Origin: Clostridiales bacterium | GTDB taxonomy: Bacteria > Bacillota > Clostridia > Saccharofermentanales > Saccharofermentanaceae | Length of the DNA: 64,000 bases | Assembly (NCBI GenBank): GCA_017617995.1 | Contig: JAFZVE010000072.1 | Location: forward strand, 31,997 to 95,996 | Reading direction: 5' to 3' | Part shown: positions 6,742-62,951 of the stretch, in pieces | Position numbering within the stretch: the first letter of the stretch is position 1 | Layout: each line of letters begins with the position of its first letter | Notes under the pieces: model-generated | Database searches by the model: none | What the model was told of the DNA's origin: nothing | Seen by the model: the letters and a program-made list of their open reading frames with translations, nothing else | Program-made: the position numbers and the translations under genes

Positions 6742-7581
6742 ATGAACCAGTCTTCTTTTGAACGCTTCACAAACAGCCGGCTGTATGCCCTCGGCGATAA
6801 GCTCGGGGACGTCTTCCTGCTTAGTTTCTTCTGGCTAATCTGCAGTATCCCTCTCGTTACGATGGGCCCCGCAACGAGTGCCCTGTACTACGCGATCAAC
6901 AAACGCTATGCGGACAAATCCGAGACGCCGCTGGCCGACTACTGGAGATCCTTCCGGCAGAACCTCGGTCAGGGGATCGCGCTGACCGTGATCCTACTTC
7001 TCTATCTCGGCGCGACCATCTTCAACGTATACGTCGCTTTTTCCGGATGGAACGGCATACGGCTTCCGTCCTGGTACGGTCCGGTCGCGATCTTGCTTCT
7101 GCTGCCGTTCCTCTTCACGGCGCTCTACGTCTTCCCGTATCTGGCGCGCTTCAAGAATTCTGTCGGAAGTATACTCTTCCACAGTTTCACCTTCTCGACG
7201 ATGTATACCGGGAATACTTTCATCATGTGGCTGTATGTCATCCTTTCCGTCGCCGTTATGATCTTCTTCTTCCCGGCCCTGCTCTTCATGCCGTTCATCT
7301 GCTGTTACCTCTGCTGGCGCCGCATCGAGCGCGACTTCGGCTATGCACTGCTCCTCAAGAAGAAGCGCGAGGAGGCTGCAATGGAAGAAGCGTCTGCCAA
7401 CGAAGAAGATGCGTCAGAGGACGAATCAGACGAGGATTCAGGGGACTCAGCGGAAGATCAATCAGACGACGCATCGGAAGAAGAGTCCGAGGACGAAATG
7501 GAAGAGGGCTCGGAGGATGCTTCGGAAGAAGAATCGGACGACGAAGAAGATACAGACGAAGTTGAGGAAGCCGACGAATAA
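6742..7581 (+). CDS. YesL-family (DUF624) membrane protein with acidic C-terminal tail
   Basis: ATG 6742 follows AGGAGGAGG. FERFTNSRLYALGDKLGDVFLLSFFWLICSIPLVTMGPATSALYY matches the YesL pattern. The last ~65 aa are D/E/S-rich. Confidence 0.8.
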   Translation: MNQSSFERFTNSRLYALGDKLGDVFLLSFFWLICSIPLVTMGPATSALYYAINKRYADKSETPLADYWRSFRQNLGQGIALTVILLLYLGATIFNVYVAFSGWNGIRLPSWYGPVAILLLLPFLFTALYVFPYLARFKNSVGSILFHSFTFSTMYTGNTFIMWLYVILSVAVMIFFFPALLFMPFICCYLCWRRIERDFGYALLLKKKREEAAMEEASANEEDASEDESDEDSGDSAEDQSDDASEEESEDEMEEGSEDASEEESDDEEDTDEVEEADE

Positions 7582-23511: not shown

Positions 23512-25983
23512 TCAGGTCGTTCTGTCGTCGAAGGTATAGTACTGTGTCTGCGCGGAGATATAGTCACTCCTATAGAACTTGCTGATCACATTCAGGTCCC
23601 ACACGAACTCCTCCCGGGAAATATCCTCGAGCGTGACCTTGATCCCGTCAGACAGAAGTTCGACAGTGCCTTTGCGGAAGAGCAGCTCGTCATCTTCGAC
23701 TATGTTATTGTAGTTCCGATCTACAACGATCTCATCATAGAATACGCAGATATTGTCTTCTATAGGAAGTGTGACCTCATGAAGTTCGGCCCCGGCAAAG
23801 AAATACCAGCTGATCGTGATCCTCTGATCGCCTTCATAACGGAACGTGAACTTCGTATATCCGTTTGCAGTTGTATAAGTACCATCGTACTTGCTGTAAT
23901 CATCGATCGTCATGCGGGTCGGCTGATACCGCCCCGGTGTCGTCTCGGACGGTGTCTCGTAAGGATCGGTATCCGAAGGGGTCTCATAAGGAGTTTCGTA
24001 AGGAGTCTCATACGTGGACTCGTACGGGGTCTCATAAGGGGGCTCGTAAGGCGTCTCGTACGGATCCGAAGTATCGTACGGCTGCTCGTAGATGTCCGTG
24101 GCCGTAGCCATACCGTCCGAAGTCGGCGCCATCGGGTCGGCCGTCGCATCCGTGAGATCCGTCACATCTGTCGTATACTCATCTGGATCCCGTAGCATCC
24201 GGTACGGGTGTCGTTCATAGAGCGCATCGATCGGGATGTTACCGAGTTCCAGGTGCTCGATCGTCTGTTTCGCACTCTCATAACCGACCACCACCCACGA
24301 AGGTGCATTTTTATCATAAGGAATCGCCGTCCCATCCTGCTCACCAGAATAATCCATCATCCAGAACCGGTAGATGAAGTACTGCGGCGTGCTGTTCTCG
24401 TCGCTACCGGGCGGAACAATGTAGCTACAGAAGGCATTGCTGTAAGGACAGTAACAGTAGAACCAGTCCTCTATCTCGTTCACATACGACGACTCGATCA
24501 CCGTATACAACTGGCCGTTCTTAAAGGTGTAAACCGAGAGTACGTATTCCCATGTTTCGTAACTGTTTGTGTAGTCCGAGATCACCAGCTCCGGGTAGAA
24601 ATCGTCGTCGATGTGCGGGAGGAAATACAGAATATTGTCATTATCCCTTCCGTATGAATCGATGATTTCGATATAAGCCTGCGCGCATTCATCCATGAGA
24701 TAATCCGTCGTCTCCGATGTGGACGGGGATGTGGACTCGGATGTAGCCGATGTTTCCGACTCCGGAGTAGTCTCGGATGTGCTTTCCACTGCCGGCGCCG
24801 TCGTGCTTTCCGAGCCTTCCGTCGCCGAAGAGGGTACACTCTCCTCTGTCTTCTCCGTCTCTTCACTCTCCAGCGACCTTCCCGCTTTTTCGAGGAAATC
24901 CTCCAAGGAAGTACCGTACGAACGCGACGACATGAGGAGCACGACACTGCAAGTGACGATGACGGAGATAAGCATCATGTACTTCGAGTGCTTCCTGTTC
25001 TTAAGAAGATTCTTGATGCGCATCTTCGTCTCCATCCCGCCGAAGCCGAGGCCGCTGAATGCCGTCTGCTGCAGGAACGATCCCCTTCGCTCGAAACGCG
25101 CATGCTCGACCAGTGAACGGCAGTACTCCTTGACCATCTCCATATCGAAAGCAAGCGTCGTCTCTTCGTCCACGCGCATCTCGATGTCGGCGCAGAGGAT
25201 GACGAACGACAGCCATACGAGGGGGTTGAACCAGTGGAGGCAGAGCACGAAATAGCTGAAGAGCTTGGTGATGCCGTCCTTATTCTTGATGTGCGTCCAC
25301 TCGTGGTTGAGGATGTATTCTTTCTCATCGTCATCGAGATGGACCGGGATAAAGATCTTCGGTCTTATGAATCCGATGACGAACGGGGTCTCGATATTCG
25401 TGGTGAAGTACCGCCCGTCGTAGGCGCGCGAGTTCCATCTCGCCTTCGAATAAAAGAGGATATACCGGACGGTAAAGAGGATGACCAGTCCGACTACGAC
25501 GACAAGCCAGATGATCGCGAAGACGCGGAATACCCGGGCTTCGGACTTACTGAGTGTTTCTTTTTCTTCTGCAAATGCACTTGTCCCCGCATCTTTTGTT
25601 TTTGCGGTTTTTCCCGTGCGTGCCTCTTCCGCTTCCGGATCTGTGATTTCTTTTCCTTTCGATATCGATTCAACTTCGTCTGCGTCATTCTTGATTAGAC
25701 CGGAGTCTGCACCATTTTTGAGATCGGCCGCGCCCGAGTGCTTTTCGAGCGTGACAGACTCAGCAGCCTCGCTCGACCCGCTCCAGAGCCGGCTTATATT
25801 CAGCACACTCGTCGGCATAGCCAGATTAAAGGGGCAGATCAGGCGGAACGCGACGACCAGCCAGAAGAGGATCAGGATCCGCTTCGGGCATTTTCTGAAA
25901 ATGAGCCGGAACAGAAGCACGATCAGGATCGCGATGCTCCCGTAGAGGCTCATTTCGAGAATCTTTGCAAACACTGCGTTCAT
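23512..25983 (-). CDS. BlaR1/MecR1-like M56 peptidase signal transducer with non-canonical extracellular domain
   Basis: The HEWTHIKNKD zinc motif sits in a multi-TM N-terminal half. The start is taken as ATG 25983 (MNAVFAKILE...), while the track start 25998 is a TTG overlapping the blaI stop. The C-terminal half has a Ser/Thr/Glu linker, PYET repeats and a domain shared with the lipoprotein. Confidence 0.8.
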   Translation of the reverse strand: MNAVFAKILEMSLYGSIAILIVLLFRLIFRKCPKRILILFWLVVAFRLICPFNLAMPTSVLNISRLWSGSSEAAESVTLEKHSGAADLKNGADSGLIKNDADEVESISKGKEITDPEAEEARTGKTAKTKDAGTSAFAEEKETLSKSEARVFRVFAIIWLVVVVGLVILFTVRYILFYSKARWNSRAYDGRYFTTNIETPFVIGFIRPKIFIPVHLDDDEKEYILNHEWTHIKNKDGITKLFSYFVLCLHWFNPLVWLSFVILCADIEMRVDEETTLAFDMEMVKEYCRSLVEHARFERRGSFLQQTAFSGLGFGGMETKMRIKNLLKNRKHSKYMMLISVIVTCSVVLLMSSRSYGTSLEDFLEKAGRSLESEETEKTEESVPSSATEGSESTTAPAVESTSETTPESETSATSESTSPSTSETTDYLMDECAQAYIEIIDSYGRDNDNILYFLPHIDDDFYPELVISDYTNSYETWEYVLSVYTFKNGQLYTVIESSYVNEIEDWFYCYCPYSNAFCSYIVPPGSDENSTPQYFIYRFWMMDYSGEQDGTAIPYDKNAPSWVVVGYESAKQTIEHLELGNIPIDALYERHPYRMLRDPDEYTTDVTDLTDATADPMAPTSDGMATATDIYEQPYDTSDPYETPYEPPYETPYESTYETPYETPYETPSDTDPYETPSETTPGRYQPTRMTIDDYSKYDGTYTTANGYTKFTFRYEGDQRITISWYFFAGAELHEVTLPIEDNICVFYDEIVVDRNYNNIVEDDELLFRKGTVELLSDGIKVTLEDISREEFVWDLNVISKFYRSDYISAQTQYYTFDDRTT
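23941..24090 (-). repeat. coding 12-nt tandem repeats (PYET repeats) inside the BlaR1-like gene
   Basis: The protein reads PYETPYEPPYETPYESTYETPYETPYETPSDTDPYETPSETTP. The DNA shows reiterated GTCTCGTAAGG/GTCTCATAAGG-like units. Confidence 0.8.
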
Positions 25984-26612: not shown

Positions 26613-26974
26613 GCAAGAGGTCAGCGCTTTTCCGGCTTGACCTCTTGTATCGGGGCGAAGAAAAATACAAGAGGTCGACAGAATTTCGACTTGACCTCTT
26701 GTATCGGGGCGAAGAAAAATACAAGAGGTCGACAGGATTTCGACTTGACCTCTTGTATCGGGGCGAAGAAAAATACAAGAGGTCGACAGGATTTCGACTT
26801 GACCTCTTGTATCGGGGCGAAGAAAAATACAAGAGGTCGACAGGATTTCGGCTTGACCTCTTGTATCGGGGCGAAGAAAAATACAAGAGGTCGACAGGAT
26901 TTCGACTTGACCTCTTGTATCGGGGCGAAGAAAAAAACAAGAGGTCGACAGGATTTCGACTCGACCTCTTGTAT
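26613..26974. repeat. tandem array A: one degenerate plus six near-identical 54-bp units, each built from a 12-bp inverted repeat
   Basis: GACCTCTTGTAT starts at 26639, 26693, 26747, 26801, 26855, 26909 and 26963, an exact 54-bp period. ATACAAGAGGTC starts at 26665 and every 54 bp thereafter. The linkers alternate between CGGGGCGAAGAAAA (14 nt) and GACAGGATTTCGACTT (16 nt). Confidence 0.95.
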
Positions 26975-27003
26975 CAGCATCATTCTCGTTTTCCGTTTAG
27001 TAT

Positions 27004-40323: not shown

Positions 40324-40369
40324 GTTGTTCCAGTGAAGAATGCAGGTCTGGTTGATGCCGTCCTGTCTT

Positions 40370-40596
40370 CAGTCTGATTTCTGTCTAATTTCACCCCTTT
40401 GATTAGACAGATATCAGACCAGAAATCGCTTCAGTCAGATAAATGCCCTTTCTTTCGCTGATCATCTGACTGGAAAAGCACTTCAGTCTGATTTTCCGTC
40501 AGATAGGGCACAAAATCAGACAAATCATCAGAATAATAAACACACAGTCTGATATTTGTCAGATGGCACCCCTTTCATCAGACAGATATCAGACTG
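40370..40596. repeat. hairpin-repeat cluster B1 (CAGTCTGAT / ATCAGACTG family, four hairpins)
   Basis: Left arms start at 40370, 40432, 40484 and 40545. The outer hairpins are ~52 bp (20-bp arms, 12-nt loop containing CACCCCTTT). Confidence 0.9.
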
Positions 40597-40620
40597 GCTT
40601 CATATTCAAACAAAATCAAG

Positions 40621-49219: not shown

Positions 49220-49376
49220 ATTCTCTTCCTCCTGTTTTGTGTTTCTCCTTACTGGAAGATTATCATGAAAACCTAACATTTCGCATCGCTATAAATAGCG
49301 ATTTTGAGGTGGGTGGGGGTGCGGATCTGGTCTGATTTTCTCTCTTTTTTCCTTGGATAGGGTTCGCTCTGAGGCT

Positions 49377-49602
49377 CAGTCTGATTTTTGTCTGATGGCA
49401 CCCTCTTCATTAGACAGAAATCAGACTGAAAACTCTCCCAGTCTAACAGAACCGGCTTTTTCAAGATTCGTCTGACCAGAGTGGCGTCCCAGTCAGATAA
49501 ACAGTCTGATACGAGCTCAAATCAGACAGATCGTCAGACTGGCTGACTCCCAGTCTGATATCTGTCTAATGTCACACCCTTTATCAGACAAATATCAGAC
49601 CA
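49377..49602. repeat. hairpin-repeat cluster B2 (same family and same internal spacing as B1)
   Basis: Left arms start at 49377, 49439, 49490 and 49551 (spacing 62/51/61, versus 62/52/61 in B1). The outer hairpins have loops GGCACCCTCTTC and GTCACACCCTTT, in the same orientation as B1. Confidence 0.9.
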
Positions 49603-49723
49603 GGAACATGCTCTTCAGTAATTCAGTCAGATGCACCGCGTATTATCCCGATATTTCTGACTCAGTCACTTTTTCAGTCAATTTCCGGCGCCAAAAGTGA
49701 CAGTTCAGTGAGCAGTCCACCCC

Positions 49724-59438: not shown

Positions 59439-59606
59439 ACAGTCTGCCTCCATTTCCATACGTTTTTCTCTACATCCAAATCCCCGAGTAAAATCTACAC
59501 AGATTATAGTTTTTGCAACGTTTTAAACAAATAAGAGTTTTATCCTGTTTTGCGGAAAAATATCACTATTTTGCTCAATTCATTTCGAATGGTGTATAAT
59601 CCAGAT

Positions 59607-60884
59607 ATGAGAAGGCCGATCACAAAAAAAGATAAGAAGATCCTCGATAAGTACAGCAACCATATCCAGACGCTAATGATGTCCGGTACGGCTGGCTTTA
59701 GTTTTCTCGCGCTTTCCATCGGCACCGCTGTGGGCGGCATCCTCGGCGCTATTGTGGCATTCGGGATACTCGGCGAGCATCATCCGCTTTCCCTTTACAT
59801 CTTCCTGTTCTCTTTTCTTATCGGCGGTGCCCTGGCTGTTTTTTTCACTATGAAGATCGGCACGAGAAGCAAGCGGAATAAGCTCTTCCGCGTTGGCATA
59901 ACACTGTTAAATGGCGCGACGTGCGTAAATAATATCGATGACGAGGAGTTCACCTATACCGAGGACGATCTTCTCGACGAAAACGGGCATCCTTATAAGA
60001 TCCTGTTTACGGAACTCTATAGCAGACCGAAGAAAGGCGACCGGTTTATCGTCCTCGTAAACGGTGATGTGACCTTCCTCATGAAAGCCGAAAACGAAGA
60101 ACTTGCGAGTCTCATCCCGGAGAAAGCGCCACAGGAAGTGCATCCGGATTCCATCGTCATCGCTCACCAGAACGAGCTTCTAAAGAAAACTTCCGTGGCC
60201 CCGCAGGCCGCATCTGCAGCGCAGACCGTGGTGACTCCTACAGCTCAGGCACAGGCTGTGGCTCCTACAGTGCAGGCACAGACCGCCACTACATCTTCAC
60301 AGATCCAGTCGCAGATCCCCAGCGCGTCGGCGCCGACGCCTCTTTACCAGTCGCAGAACGAAGCGTACAGGATTGCGGCTTCAGCTTATGAGAAGCGCCA
60401 GATCGAGACCTTCTACAACCACTATCCGAACACTTCCCGATTCCGCCGTTCTCTGGCCATCCTCGGCACAGGCTTCTTCGGGTTCTGTTTCCTCACCATC
60501 ATTTTCTTCTCCTGTTACGGATTATTCTTCGATGGAACGGCTTACGAAGACCGCTACTTCCCGGTCGCCGTCCCGCTCATCTTCTTATTGACTCCGGTCT
60601 GCATCTGGGTGTGCATCCGCGTTTTCAAGAGGAGTCTTTATAAGAAATACGGTGAGATCAAGGCCGTAAAGCCTGTCCTGCTCGTAAGGACGAACGTCAA
60701 CATGATCGTACCCCATACCCGTGATTTCGTCATCTCGGAGGCTGACATCAACGGCAACATGGTCGTCAATCAGTACCGTGCGCATCCGAATTACGACTGC
60801 GCCGATTCCGATCACATGAAGCCCGGCCAGACGATCTTCAAGTACACCTTCGAAAACGGCGGCATCTTCTTCGGCTCAAAGTGA
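59607..60884 (+). CDS. hypothetical membrane protein
   Basis: The ORF is open from 59550 (TTG). ATG 59607 lies 7 nt after TGTATAAT, so the start is uncertain and the mRNA may be leaderless. It has TM segments and a Q/A/T-rich linker. Confidence 0.6.
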   Translation: MRRPITKKDKKILDKYSNHIQTLMMSGTAGFSFLALSIGTAVGGILGAIVAFGILGEHHPLSLYIFLFSFLIGGALAVFFTMKIGTRSKRNKLFRVGITLLNGATCVNNIDDEEFTYTEDDLLDENGHPYKILFTELYSRPKKGDRFIVLVNGDVTFLMKAENEELASLIPEKAPQEVHPDSIVIAHQNELLKKTSVAPQAASAAQTVVTPTAQAQAVAPTVQAQTATTSSQIQSQIPSASAPTPLYQSQNEAYRIAASAYEKRQIETFYNHYPNTSRFRRSLAILGTGFFGFCFLTIIFFSCYGLFFDGTAYEDRYFPVAVPLIFLLTPVCIWVCIRVFKRSLYKKYGEIKAVKPVLLVRTNVNMIVPHTRDFVISEADINGNMVVNQYRAHPNYDCADSDHMKPGQTIFKYTFENGGIFFGSK

Positions 60885-60902
60885 TTTCACGTCGATCGCC
60901 CA

Positions 60903-61256
60903 TTCCGTCCCTTTTGAAAGTATCATCAATTGGGGACGGAAGATTTCAACGTCCTTCAATGCCAATTCCGTCCTTTTCTCCCAAAATGGCGAAAAGGGAC
61001 GGAAATATAAACGAGGGTTCTTCCCCTTTTCCGTCCCTTTTGAGCAAAATCGCTATTTCGGACGGAATTTTAAGATTCTCGGAGAATCAGATTCCGTCCT
61101 TTTTTTGGAAAATCTTCATTCGGGACGGAAATGCGTATTCCCTCGCAAAGATAATTCCGTCCCTTTTCGACAAAAATACGAAAACAGACGGAAAGCCCTC
61201 AGAAGGCCACATCGGTTTTCCGTCCCTTTGAAAGTATTTGCAAATTGAGACGGAAT
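60903..61256. repeat. hairpin-repeat array C: six units, exact 63-bp period (TTCCGTCC ... GGACGGAA)
   Basis: TTCCGTCC starts at 60903, 60966, 61029, 61092, 61155 and 61218. GGACGGAA-like arms start at 60934, 60997, 61060, 61123, 61186 and ~61248. Loops and inter-unit spacers vary in sequence. Confidence 0.95.
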
Positions 61257-61259
61257 GGC

Positions 61260-61291
61260 AAAAAAAGACGCCCCCGAATCTCAGGAGCGTC
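61260..61291 (-). terminator. predicted terminator after the HerA-like gene
   Basis: The minus strand reads GACGCTCC-TGAGATTC-GGGGGCGTC followed by TTTTTTT (plus-strand A7 at 61260-61266). Confidence 0.55.
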
Positions 61292-61337
61292 CGATAATTC
61301 ATATGACTTGGAAACGAAATTCCGGTCTCCGCCGGCC

Positions 61338-62951
61338 TTACAGCATCGGCGTGTCGTTGTACTGCTTTCTGTCGCACTTGTTGACGTGGATGAAGACGTT
61401 GTGCAGGAGGTTGACGCTCGTCAGGATGACTTCGCCCTGATTGAGCTTACGGACATGCTTCATCGCATAATCGTCGAGGTGGTTCTCGACAGCGTGGATC
61501 TCGTCGTTAAGCATGAGACGGTGGATCAACATCGTACCGACCTGTCCGAAAAGCACTGGAGACACGTCTTTCGGATTCTGTGTCGTCAGGTAGAGGAACA
61601 CACCCTTACGACGGCCTTCTCTGGCGATCAGCGTCAGACCACCATGGAATTCTCTCTCGGAATATCTGGACTTCGCGTATCTGTGGACCTCATCGATGAA
61701 GAATACGAAGGGGTAAGTATCCTGCTGCGCCATAACGAAATTACTCAACAGGTCGATAACCATGCCGCCGACACCTTCCGCCGCACCGAGTGCAGATGTA
61801 TCGATGTACAGACTCTCCTCCGGACGGTGAACGAAATCATCCACAACATCGAGGAGATTATTCATACTCGGGTCATTGGAGAAGAACGTCAGGAATCGAG
61901 TGTTCGTCATCTGATACTGGATCTTCTTAACAAAAGAAGCATTGGCGTTCGCCTTCAGCGCATCGTAACGGAAACGGAAGTTATAGTCATTATCACGATC
62001 CGGCTCGCAGACTGCCTCCGCCTGGATCTGCTCCGGCAGAAGCTCGATATTGAAGTCGGTATCTTCATTGGAAACAGAAGCGAGATTCTCCTGAACTTCG
62101 TCGATATTCGCACCGACCTTATAGTAGTAGGAATCGTCGCCGATCTTCTTCATGAAGCGAAGCGAAGTAATCGCCTCTGCCAGAACCGCGCCCTGGCCGC
62201 TGTTCTCCGCCTCGAAAAGTTTCTCCCACTGTTCCATCGTGATCTTACTCGGAGAGATCGTCGTATCGATACCCAGAGTCAGCTTCATGACCTCATCGTC
62301 AGAAAACGCGTGGCGGTACTCACCGGTCGGATCGATGATCAGTGCCTTTCTTCTGGTACGGATCAATTTATCGAGGATCGCGAGCGCCGTAGTAGACTTA
62401 CCACTGTTCGTCGCACCGATACACATCAGGTGACGGTTAAAGAGCGTACTCGGCTTGAGTGACACCGAAGCCTGCGCGGAACGGTTAAGATATGTCGCGA
62501 ATGACGGGAGCGGCTGCTCGTCGTCCTGAGAGAACTCGAGCGACTGGATGAACAGCTGATAAGTAACATCCGGAGCAATGTAGACTTTATCGGTGATACC
62601 GAGCGTCTTAAATCCCGCAAGCTGGAAACGGTTGGAGTTCGGAGTCAGAACCGCGAGAGTATCGATGCAGATCTCGTGATAGCCCTGCGCCTTCCCATCG
62701 GCCTGCTCGGAGACATTCTTTCTTGAAGACTTATTCTCGAAAACCTCTCCGAGGAACACACCTACGGTCGATTCGACCAGTACGAAGTAGTTGATGGTGT
62801 TCGGGAGAAATGAACTGCTGAAATTGCTTCTGTTCGTCATCGCTTCGACGTTTTCGATCTGTGCGATACAGCTGCTTCGATAAACCTGCGTTACTTTTCC
62901 CAGATAATAGTCTTGGATGTTCAGCCCTTCAAATAGAGATTCGAGTGTCAT
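61338..62951 (-). CDS. HerA/FtsK-like (DUF87-type) ATPase
   Basis: Walker A IGATNSGKST, Walker B VFFIDEVHRY and the C-terminal LTTQNPKDVSPVLFGQVGTMLIHRL are present. An N-terminal barrel-like region and a GGAGG RBS are also present. Confidence 0.8.
   Translation of the reverse strand: MTLESLFEGLNIQDYYLGKVTQVYRSSCIAQIENVEAMTNRSNFSSSFLPNTINYFVLVESTVGVFLGEVFENKSSRKNVSEQADGKAQGYHEICIDTLAVLTPNSNRFQLAGFKTLGITDKVYIAPDVTYQLFIQSLEFSQDDEQPLPSFATYLNRSAQASVSLKPSTLFNRHLMCIGATNSGKSTTALAILDKLIRTRRKALIIDPTGEYRHAFSDDEVMKLTLGIDTTISPSKITMEQWEKLFEAENSGQGAVLAEAITSLRFMKKIGDDSYYYKVGANIDEVQENLASVSNEDTDFNIELLPEQIQAEAVCEPDRDNDYNFRFRYDALKANANASFVKKIQYQMTNTRFLTFFSNDPSMNNLLDVVDDFVHRPEESLYIDTSALGAAEGVGGMVIDLLSNFVMAQQDTYPFVFFIDEVHRYAKSRYSEREFHGGLTLIAREGRRKGVFLYLTTQNPKDVSPVLFGQVGTMLIHRLMLNDEIHAVENHLDDYAMKHVRKLNQGEVILTSVNLLHNVFIHVNKCDRKQYNDTPML

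What the first reader, a model, noticed from the sequence alone, without database searches (positions are those of the whole stretch)
60903..61256. Array C: six hairpins with an exact 63-bp phase next to the solo HerA-like gene
TTCCGTCC starts at 60903, 60966, 61029, 61092, 61155 and 61218, exactly 63 bp apart. Each is followed ~22 nt later by the complementary GGACGGAA, also 63 bp apart except for the last arm.

Only the arms and a short T/A-run next to them are conserved. The loops and the inter-unit spacers differ in sequence.

Sixty-three bp is six turns of B-DNA. All arms would therefore face the same side of the helix, which is what one expects of a cooperative protein-binding array (centromere-like or iteron-like) rather than of simple mRNA-stabilising hairpins.

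The array fills the convergent gap between the membrane-protein gene (stop 60884) and the terminator of the HerA-like ATPase gene (61260-61291).
Basis: seen in the sequence. Interest (0 to 1): 0.65.

Follow-up and report, generated by a model that had tools for sequence, protein, structure and literature searches.

The report
Dispersed split-palindrome hairpin repeat array
The six phased hairpins are real, but they are one copy of a repeat family scattered through the intergenic DNA of uncultured rumen and gut Clostridia, in which only two 8-base arms and their 39-base span are kept by selection, and they have no special link to the HerA-like gene.

Summary
Six units TTCCGTCC-N23-(G/A)GACGGAA lie at 60903-61255 in exact 63-bp phase (0 of 100 shuffles).

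It is not a HerA-linked centromere or iteron. The same split palindrome forms 1-8-unit arrays at about 24 other loci in about 11 rumen and gut 'Clostridiales'/'Mogibacterium' genome bins. Their neighbours are unrelated genes, and they sit in convergent, tandem and divergent gaps.

Most HerA orthologue loci carry only a terminator downstream. Two lineages carry arrays with different arms there.

Against the orthologous array in RGIG7868:
- arms are 79/80 identical;
- loops are 56% and linkers 62% identical;
- four-fold sites of the flanking genes are 66-76% identical;
- the one clear large length change inside the array is a whole 63-bp unit.

The span is 39 nt in 92 of about 100 units. The period is 63, 64 or 65 bp depending on the array, so six helical turns is not a family constant.

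It is not coding, CRISPR or TIGR, and it matches no Rfam family.

Best reading is a REP/BIME-like dispersed palindromic repeat, recognised through its arms at a fixed distance, which here forms a multi-hairpin module after the membrane-protein gene. Binding of a protein to duplex DNA remains a live rival. I call it a new variant of a known kind, of moderate interest.

The parts
60903..61255 (.). Whole array: six head-to-tail units, each a 39-nt split palindrome plus a 24-nt linker, period 63 bp
   Evidence: Identical in four metagenome runs.
60903..60941 (.). Unit 1: TTCCGTCCC-N21-GGGACGGAA
   Evidence: RNA fold -19.8 kcal/mol, z -3.7. Orthologous to L008 unit 1.
60966..61004 (.). Unit 2: stem extendable to TTCCGTCC-TTTTC / GAAAAGGGACGGAA
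   Evidence: Fold -20.2 kcal/mol, z -4.9.
61029..61067 (.). Unit 3: 8-bp arms
   Evidence: Fold -15.7 kcal/mol, z -4.1.
61092..61154 (.). Unit 4 plus its linker: the 63-bp unit that is absent from the orthologous array in L008. The linker before it (61068-61091), with the left arm and the T7 run, also forms a terminator-like hairpin on the + strand.
   Evidence: Alignment A1 shows an exact 63-column gap. Terminator-like hit 61080-61096 followed by a T-rich tail. Inter-unit fold -20.6 kcal/mol.
61155..61193 (.). Unit 5: right arm AGACGGAA (C.A at pair 8), inner stem TTTTCG/CGAAAA
   Evidence: -14.4 kcal/mol, z -6.1.
61218..61255 (.). Unit 6: 38 nt, right arm AGACGGAA, weakest hairpin. Its loop is related to that of unit 1 (78%).
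   Evidence: family D3; -9.1 kcal/mol, z -0.3.
61259..61292 (-). Intrinsic terminator of the HerA-like gene (12-bp stem plus T7). It lies between that gene and the array, so the array is not in the HerA mRNA unless transcription reads through.
   Evidence: 26 of 27 positions identical in L008.
59550..60884 (+). Upstream gene, 444 aa, about four hydrophobic segments, no Pfam family. Its stop is 19 nt before the first arm, and no canonical terminator precedes the array on this strand.
61338..62951 (-). HerA/DUF87-type ATPase gene, convergent neighbour. It is conserved at 74-94% in relatives that mostly lack any array.
60881..61231 (+). Open frame through the array (116 aa; 81 aa were called as a gene on the ENA contig). 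It is a by-product of the 21-codon period and not a gene.
   Evidence: The same frame has two stops in L008. No protein homologue found. The arms are invariant at all three codon positions.

Best explanation
The array is a local tandem cluster of a dispersed, lineage-specific repeat. The unit is a 39-nt split palindrome. It has 8-9-nt arms, TTCCGTCC(C) and (G)GGACGGAA, whose starts are exactly 31 nt apart, and an A/T-rich filler of free sequence between them.

Shown:
- The unit occurs singly and in head-to-tail arrays of up to 8 at many intergenic sites in a group of rumen and gut Clostridia.
- Arrays gain and lose whole units in register.
- The arms and the 39-nt span are under strong purifying selection, while loops and linkers drift at or above the synonymous rate.
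- The array is not coding and is not tied to the HerA-like gene.

Inferred:
- The arms are kept because a trans-acting factor recognises both of them at a fixed distance. This factor may be the one that spread the family, in the way that REP sequences depend on their transposase-like RAYT partner.
- At this locus the array lies in the read-through transcript of the 444-aa membrane-protein gene. There its six stem-loops (-9 to -20 kcal/mol) would act like an E. coli REP/BIME cluster such as REP325. They would block 3'-to-5' decay of the upstream mRNA and damp transcription running into the convergent HerA-like gene.
For: Reality and dispersal:
- 24 relevant loci were found with a two-unit pattern in 185,579 species genomes, all in rumen and gut 'Clostridiales'/'Mogibacterium sp.' bins, with several loci per genome.
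- Neighbours are unrelated: ArgR, RuvC, YgjV, GNAT, LUD, nitroreductase, GDSL, SLAC1, LysR.
- All intergenic configurations are used.

Selection:
- Arms 79/80 identical, loops 64/114, linkers 60/96, four-fold sites 152/229 and 136/178.
- p = 1e-13 for arms against loops plus linkers.

Ruler: the span is 39 nt in 92 and 38 nt in 4 of about 100 units.

Unit turnover: there is one exact 63-bp indel between orthologous arrays.

Hairpin potential and position:
- Five of six units fold far better than shuffles.
- The array starts 19 nt after the stop codon, with no earlier terminator on that strand.
- The two other independent arrays of the same subtype, L018 and L010, also start 8-27 nt after the stop of a co-oriented gene.

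Analogy: the E. coli REP325 cluster is reported to act as both terminator and mRNA stabiliser in a 3'UTR (bioRxiv 10.64898/2026.03.23.713779).

Weak transcript evidence: one 95-nt exact contig of an RNA-seq run lies inside a related array, L016.
Against: - No RNA data exist for this locus. The RNA contig on L016 has low depth and could be DNA carry-over.
- A free RNA hairpin does not need a fixed 23-nt loop, so the 39-nt ruler is not explained by hairpin function alone.
- In the 65-bp subtype, 7 of 16 arrays lie between divergent genes, in either orientation. That is unlike E. coli REPs and argues against a purely 3'UTR role for the family.
- Variants at pair 8 show no strand bias (T.G 8, C.A 8).
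- No RAYT or other transposase was seen within the 8-kb flanks. Whole genomes could not be searched.
- Intra-unit and inter-unit pairings are about equally stable, so the fold in vivo is undefined.
Confidence: 0.5

Rival explanations
1. The array is a scaffold for protein binding on duplex DNA. A dimeric or higher-order protein binds the two inverted half-sites 31 bp apart (about three helical turns, so the same face) across an A/T-rich, bendable filler. Tandem units then allow cooperative binding or wrapping. This is the reader's idea, but applied to a genome-wide nucleoid-associated or regulatory protein and not to a centromere.
For: - The arm sequence, and not just complementarity, is invariant, and the span is invariant.
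- Fillers are 31% G+C against 53% for the window, with T and A runs about 9-10 bp apart.
- There is no strand bias in arm variants.
- Arrays occur in either orientation and often in divergent promoter regions.
- Other arm families in the same genomes have the same 36-39-bp span.
Against: - No candidate binder was found, and each arm family would need its own binder.
- The unit-to-unit period varies (63, 64, 65, with odd units at 53, 73 and 75), so phasing between units is not conserved.
- I know of no precedent for tandem site arrays scattered over dozens of chromosomal loci, apart from gyrase and IHF binding to BIMEs.
- G.T pairs recur on one strand in the sister family of L030, which fits single-strand folding.
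Confidence: 0.3
2. The array is selfish or neutral repetitive DNA with no host function. In this reading it is a miniature mobile element amplified by slippage in a permissive gap between convergent genes.
For: - Presence is sporadic among close relatives.
- There is whole-unit gain or loss.
- Three different array types occupy the gap downstream of the HerA gene in three lineages.
- In L030 a whole array with about 30 nt of leader is duplicated at a second site.
Against: Every one of 10 orthologous arms is kept (79/80 positions) while the sequence between them has diverged by about 40%. Inactive relics of a mobile element would decay uniformly.
Confidence: 0.1
3. The array is a guide-RNA array of the TIGR or CRISPR kind. 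The two alternating short repeats would frame two variable 'spacers' of 23 and 24 nt that target other nucleic acids.
For: - Two alternating 8-13-nt repeats with fixed-length variable segments.
- Repeats are uniform within an array and differ between arrays.
- 5-8 units, with a terminator at one end.
- TIGR arrays are described as poorly conserved and easily missed.
Against: [quoted passage not shown] The arrays lie next to a Nop-domain tas gene (PMC12045711). None of this is seen here.
- The variable segments of orthologous arrays are alignable and drift like neutral sites, and are not replaced.
- Arrays lie beside housekeeping genes at many loci.
- There is no match in phages or plasmids or viral contigs.
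Confidence: 0.03
4. The array is a centromere-like or iteron-like site served by the neighbouring HerA-like ATPase.
For: It is adjacent to the ATPase gene, and the local phase is exactly 63 bp.
Against: - HerA orthologues at 74-94% identity mostly have no array.
- The array family lies next to unrelated genes elsewhere.
- A strong terminator separates the gene from the array.
- There are several arrays per genome.
Confidence: 0.03
5. The array is a protein-coding 21-residue tandem repeat (IPS...DG), in an ORF that overlaps the upstream stop codon.
For: The frame is open for 116 codons, the GTG overlaps the TGA, and part of it was called as an 81-aa gene on the ENA contig.
Against: - The same frame carries two stops in the orthologue.
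- There is no homologue among 5.8 billion protein clusters and no Pfam family.
- The arms are invariant at synonymous positions.
- Arrays with 64- and 65-bp periods cannot keep a frame.
Confidence: 0.01

Closest known systems
REP sequences clustered as BIMEs in Enterobacteria and Pseudomonas (for example the E. coli REP325 cluster)
   Same: - Short extragenic palindromes dispersed over many intergenic sites.
- Found singly or in tandem clusters of up to about 8-12.
- The number of units varies between strains.
- They form stem-loops in 3'UTRs, with reported roles as decay barriers and terminators.
- They are family-specific within a lineage.
   Different: - REPs are conserved along their whole length, with short loops, and neighbouring REPs in a BIME alternate in orientation.
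- Here only 8-9-nt arms are conserved, around a 21-23-nt free filler of fixed length, and units are head to tail.
- There is no GTAG-type 5' tetranucleotide, and no RAYT gene was seen in the flanks.
- The family is frequent in divergent regions.
BOX elements of Streptococcus pneumoniae (boxA-boxB(n)-boxC) and STAR repeats of Staphylococcus aureus. This comparison rests on my own knowledge.
   Same: - Dispersed intergenic modular repeats in Firmicutes with a variable number of internal tandem units.
- STAR has short conserved G+C-rich motifs separated by variable spacers of roughly constant length.
   Different: - BOX modules are conserved in sequence throughout.
- STAR motifs are direct repeats and not inverted pairs.
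- Neither has a 39-nt split palindrome.
sopC of plasmid F and other plasmid centromere or iteron arrays. This comparison rests on my own knowledge.
   Same: Tandem direct units of about 43-63 bp, each carrying a short inverted repeat that could bind a dimer.
   Different: - sopC units are near-identical throughout, occur once per replicon and lie next to their partition genes.
- Here units share only the arms, there are many chromosomal loci, and there is no partition gene.
TIGR arrays of TIGR-Tas systems, dual-repeat and stem-loop types
   Same: - Alternating short conserved repeats with fixed-length variable segments.
- They escape CRISPR finders.
- Repeats are array-specific.
   Different: - TIGR spacers are 8-12 nt with box C/D motifs, and units are about 36 nt or variable stems.
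- A Nop-domain Tas gene is always adjacent.
- None of this applies here.

Membership tests
REP/BIME | Imperfect palindrome of about 20-40 nt able to form a stem-loop | tested here: met
   39-nt units. Five of six fold with z of -2.6 to -6.1.
REP/BIME | Extragenic, with many dispersed copies per genome | tested here: met
   Several contigs per bin (9 of RUG11951, 3 of RUG14658, 2 of RGIG7868), all intergenic. Absolute copy number per genome could not be counted.
REP/BIME | Sequence conserved along the whole element, with neighbouring REPs in alternating orientation | tested here: not met
   Only the arms are conserved in the window subtype, and units are head to tail.
REP/BIME | Conserved 5' tetranucleotide and a cognate RAYT (Y1 transposase) gene flanked by REPs | tested here: inconclusive
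   There is no GTAG-like motif. The 65-bp subtype has AAAC...GTC flanks. No Y1 transposase was found among 27 flanking proteins. Whole genomes could not be searched.
CRISPR array | Repeat of 23-50 nt identical along its length, unique spacers that turn over, and cas genes or a leader | tested here: not met
   The interior of the 'repeat' is variable. Spacers are orthologous and drifting. No cas domains were found in the neighbours.
TIGR array | Two 8-12-nt spacers flanked by box C/D motifs, with an adjacent Nop-domain tas gene | tested here: not met
   Variable segments are 23 and 24 nt with no internal conserved motif. Neighbours are a membrane protein, a HerA ATPase, a kinase and an FMN reductase.
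Plasmid-type centromere or iteron array | One array per replicon, adjacent to its partition or replication gene and co-inherited with it | tested here: not met
   There are many loci per genome. HerA orthologues lack the array.
Plasmid-type centromere or iteron array | Specific binding of a cognate protein | not testable with these tools
   This needs gel-shift, DAP-seq or ChIP.
Intrinsic terminator | G+C-rich stem, loop of 3-8 nt, followed by a U-tract | tested here: not met
   Unit loops are 21-23 nt and no U-tract follows the right arm. Only one inter-unit hairpin (61056-61104, then T7) looks canonical.
Protein-coding tandem repeat | Frame conserved in orthologues, homologues exist, and substitutions are concentrated at synonymous sites | tested here: not met
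Rfam RNA families | Match above the gathering score | tested here: not met
   None at gathering threshold. Only a chance hit at E = 0.72.

The most novel reading that the evidence does not exclude
The 38-39-nt span may be a molecular ruler shared by at least five unrelated arm sequences in these genomes:
- TTCCGTCC
- CATACTAAA
- ACACATTAAA
- GACCTCTTGTAT
- GTAGTTCC

That would point to an undescribed class of elements. One possibility is a family of paralogous dimeric proteins, each reading its own split palindrome on DNA and assembling on tandem arrays. The other is a new kind of miniature mobile element whose enzyme measures the distance between two short ends. In either case the sequence between the arms is free to drift.
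Probability: 0.2. Interest if true: 0.7.

Novelty: new variant of a known kind. Interest (0 to 1): 0.5.

Why it matters
Dispersed palindromic repeats are well studied in Proteobacteria and a few pathogens. They are hardly studied in the uncultured Clostridia that dominate rumen and gut communities.

This family separates three things unusually cleanly: what is selected (two 8-nt arms and a 39-nt span), what drifts (everything between them), and how arrays change (whole units). That makes it a tractable case for asking whether such repeats work as RNA hairpins, as DNA binding sites or as mobile DNA.

Practically, the arrays create open frames that gene callers annotate as proteins. They are also hotspots of intergenic turnover between otherwise syntenic strains.

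Tried and rejected
1. Rfam at gathering and permissive thresholds: nothing real.
2. Phage, plasmid and viral-contig searches with the array or its two-unit pattern: no match.
3. RNA evidence for the window locus: no RNA runs hold it. A related array, L016, gave only a thin RNA contig.
4. Strain polymorphism in four DNA runs: the array is identical, with no unit-number variants.
5. Transposase, RAYT, Cas or Tas next to arrays: 27 flanking proteins scanned, none found.
6. Coding hypothesis: rejected.
7. TIGR-Tas and UG27 ncRNA arrays: read and rejected on architecture and context.
8. Wobble-asymmetry test for the active strand: T.G equals C.A at pair 8 in the family, so it was uninformative. One-strand G.T pairs occur only in the sister family of L030.
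9. Orientation relative to genes: the window subtype is 3 of 3 downstream of a co-oriented gene, which is not significant. The 65-bp subtype shows no rule.
10. The global fold of the array gives long-range nesting of identical arms and says nothing about the fold in vivo.
11. L009 (Planctomycetota, 21-nt repeat) and L022 (Dehalococcoidia, 61-bp CRISPR-like array) matched the search pattern but are unrelated.

Full report
**1. The observation**

The sequence shows six units of TTCCGTCC(C)-filler-(G)GGACGGAA at 60903, 60966, 61029, 61092, 61155 and 61218, exactly 63 bp apart.
- The hairpin pattern occurs 6 times against 0.04 expected, and no shuffle out of 100 reaches that.
- Units 1-4 carry the exact complement. 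Units 5 and 6 have AGACGGAA.
- Each hairpin spans 39 nt (38 in unit 6) and each linker is 24 nt.
- A T-run follows every left arm. Loops and linkers otherwise differ, though loops 1 and 6 are 78% alike, a trace of old duplication.
- Four metagenome runs carry the identical array.

- a 444-aa protein with about four hydrophobic segments, ending at 60884;
- a DUF87/HerA-type ATPase on the minus strand, at 61338-62951;
- that gene's strong terminator at 61292-61266 followed by T7.

The terminator lies between the ATPase gene and the array. On the plus strand nothing terminator-like precedes the array.

**2. A dispersed family**

A scan of one genome per species (185,579 species) for two consecutive units returned 26 stretches.
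- Two of them, L009 and L022, are unrelated repeats that happen to contain the 8-mer.
- The other 24 come from about 11 rumen and gut bins labelled Clostridiales or Mogibacterium sp., with several loci per bin.
- Arrays have 1 to 8 units.
- An unbiased census of arm distances gives a hairpin span of 39 nt in 92 cases and 38 nt in 4.
- Linkers are 24 nt (12 cases), 25 nt (4) or 26 nt (58), giving periods of 63, 64 or 65 bp.
- The period is uniform within an array but differs between arrays.
- The invariant quantity is therefore the 31-nt arm-to-arm distance, not the six-turn period.

In the common 65-bp subtype the whole unit is conserved. Its consensus is AAAC-TTCCGTCC-nAAACGCnGAAAACGGGCCTCnG-GGACGGAA-GTC. 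The window subtype (window, L008, L018, L010) keeps only the arms and the T-run.

Neighbouring genes are unrelated to one another: ArgR, RuvC, YgjV, an acetyltransferase, a LUD-domain protein, a nitroreductase, a lipase, an anion channel and a LysR regulator. Arrays lie in convergent, tandem and divergent gaps and in either orientation.

**3. No tie to the HerA-like gene**

28 metagenome loci encode orthologues at 74-92% identity.
- Only the window's own contig (L027) and the genome bin RGIG7868 (L008; HerA 94%, membrane protein 86%) share this array.
- About 17 of the 20 orthologue loci with readable downstream sequence have a single terminator hairpin 25-60 nt after the stop and nothing else.
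- L028-L030 (HerA 92%) carry a different array at the same place. Its units are 38-nt hairpins, AGCATACTAA-N18-TTTGGTATGTT, spaced 63, 73 and 63 bp.
- The same loci carry two paralogous arrays of ACACATTAAA-N16-TTTAATGTGT in two other gaps.
- L040 has a 71-bp array with doubled arms.

**4. What selection keeps**

Alignment with L008 pairs the units one to one. Identities are as follows:

| Class | Identical |
|---|---|
| Arms | 79 of 80 |
| Loops | 64 of 114 |
| Linkers | 60 of 96 |
| HerA terminator | 26 of 27 |
| Four-fold sites, HerA gene | 152 of 229 |
| Four-fold sites, membrane-protein gene | 136 of 178 |

- Arms against loops plus linkers gives p = 1e-13.
- Loops and linkers are, if anything, faster than synonymous sites (p = 0.004).
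- Inside the array the alignment shows one gap of exactly 63 bp, which is unit 4 with its linker. The only other length difference is a 1-nt gap in unit 6.
- The roughly 105 nt of flanking intergenic DNA carry several indels.
- Arms and spacing are therefore constrained, and everything else is free.
- Fillers are 31% G+C and linkers 43%, against 53% for the window.

**5. What it is not**

- Not coding. The 116-codon frame exists because 63 is 21 codons and the arms lack stops. The orthologue has two stops in that frame. No homologue or Pfam family exists.
- Not CRISPR. The repeat interior varies, and the 'spacers' are orthologous and drifting.
- Not TIGR. That system has 8-12-nt spacers, box C/D motifs and an adjacent Nop-domain gene.
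- Not a UG27-type ncRNA array, whose units are about 150 nt and lie next to a reverse transcriptase.
- Not a set of canonical terminators. Loops are 21-23 nt and no U-tract follows the right arm. One inter-unit hairpin (61056-61104, followed by T7) does look like a terminator for the membrane-protein gene.
- No Rfam, plasmid, phage or viral-contig match.

**6. How it most likely works**

Identical arms allow two pairing registers of similar stability:
- within units, -9 to -20 kcal/mol;
- between units, -13 to -24 kcal/mol.

The within-unit 39-mer is the true unit, for two reasons. Arrays always begin with a left arm and end with a right arm. Single 39-mers also exist.

I favour a REP/BIME-like element, with confidence about 0.5.
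- It would be a dispersed palindrome whose arms are read at a fixed distance by a trans-acting factor, perhaps the one that spreads it.
- At this locus it would sit in the 3' region of the membrane-protein transcript, as a multi-hairpin barrier to exonucleases and to transcription into the convergent gene.
- This is what is reported for the E. coli REP325 cluster.
- The two other independent arrays of the window subtype also start 8-27 nt after the stop of a co-oriented gene. Three cases prove nothing.

The main rival, at about 0.3, is binding of a multimeric protein to duplex DNA at half-sites three turns apart.
- It explains the ruler better, as well as the A/T-rich filler, the lack of strand bias in arm variants and the frequent position in divergent regions.
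- It lacks any candidate binder, and it needs one binder per arm family.

Nothing here decides between DNA and RNA. No RNA run holds the locus. A related array is covered only by a thin RNA-seq contig.

**7. Novelty and score**

The kind is known: dispersed extragenic palindromes that cluster in tandem.

The variant is, as far as I can tell, not described. This rests on the library searches and on my own knowledge. Its distinctive features are:
- split palindromes with a fixed span and a free interior;
- head-to-tail arrays;
- several arm families sharing a 36-39-nt span in the same genomes.

Interest is moderate, at 0.5.

Noticed in passing
window 26614-26975: A second hairpin array: 6.3 copies of a 54-bp unit, 98% identical. 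Each unit holds a 38-nt hairpin, GACCTCTTGTAT-N14-ATACAAGAGGTC. It has the same span as the finding but different arms and a 16-nt linker, and it looks like a young array of the same class. Several spurious ORFs run through it (54 bp is 18 codons).
   Followed up: partly
window 40340-40610 and 49340-49610: Two paralogous copies (78% identical) of a composite element of about 250 bp. It is made of hairpins whose arms are doubled motifs (CAGTCTGAT..CTGTCTAAT / ATTAGACAG..ATCAGAC) around loops containing CACCCC. The copies lie in the same orientation about 9 kb apart and bracket several genes. L037 (6845-6960) and L039 have the same architecture with other arms (AAAAGTA..AAAAGTACGTT).
   Followed up: partly
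L030 2865-3080, 5727-5963 and 7659-7944: Three hairpin arrays within 9.6 kb of a close relative. Two of them, with arms ACACATTAAA/TTTAATGTGT, are segmental duplicates that include a leader of about 30 nt. They sit in different gaps, after the ABC-transporter gene and between the membrane-protein and 773-aa-protein homologues. This suggests that whole arrays can be copied to new sites.
   Followed up: partly
L040 2728-2891: Downstream of the HerA orthologue there is a 71-bp-period array with doubled arms (GGGTAACG-N4-CGGTAACG / CGTAACC-N5-CGTTACCC). It is a third array type in the same gap in a third lineage.
   Followed up: no
L012 6420-6630: A 84-bp tandem repeat whose unit contains a 38-nt hairpin, GTAGTTCC-N22-GGAACTAC. 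It is another arm family with the same span.
   Followed up: no
window 60986-61231 (+): The public annotation of the source contig (ENA ERZ28653445, scaffold_260) calls an 81-aa gene inside the array. It is an artefact of the 21-codon period.
   Followed up: yes
window 61338-62951 (-): The solo HerA/DUF87-type ATPase is conserved at 74-94% identity across 28 rumen and gut metagenome loci with varied neighbours. No NurA-like partner was seen in the flanks examined. It behaves like a core gene of the clade and not like a defence-island gene.
   Followed up: partly
window 23976-24060 and 7414-7545: Short-period tandem repeats reported by Tandem Repeats Finder: a 12-nt unit AAGGGGTCTCGT repeated 7 times, and 24/48-nt acidic-looking units. 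These were not examined.
   Followed up: no
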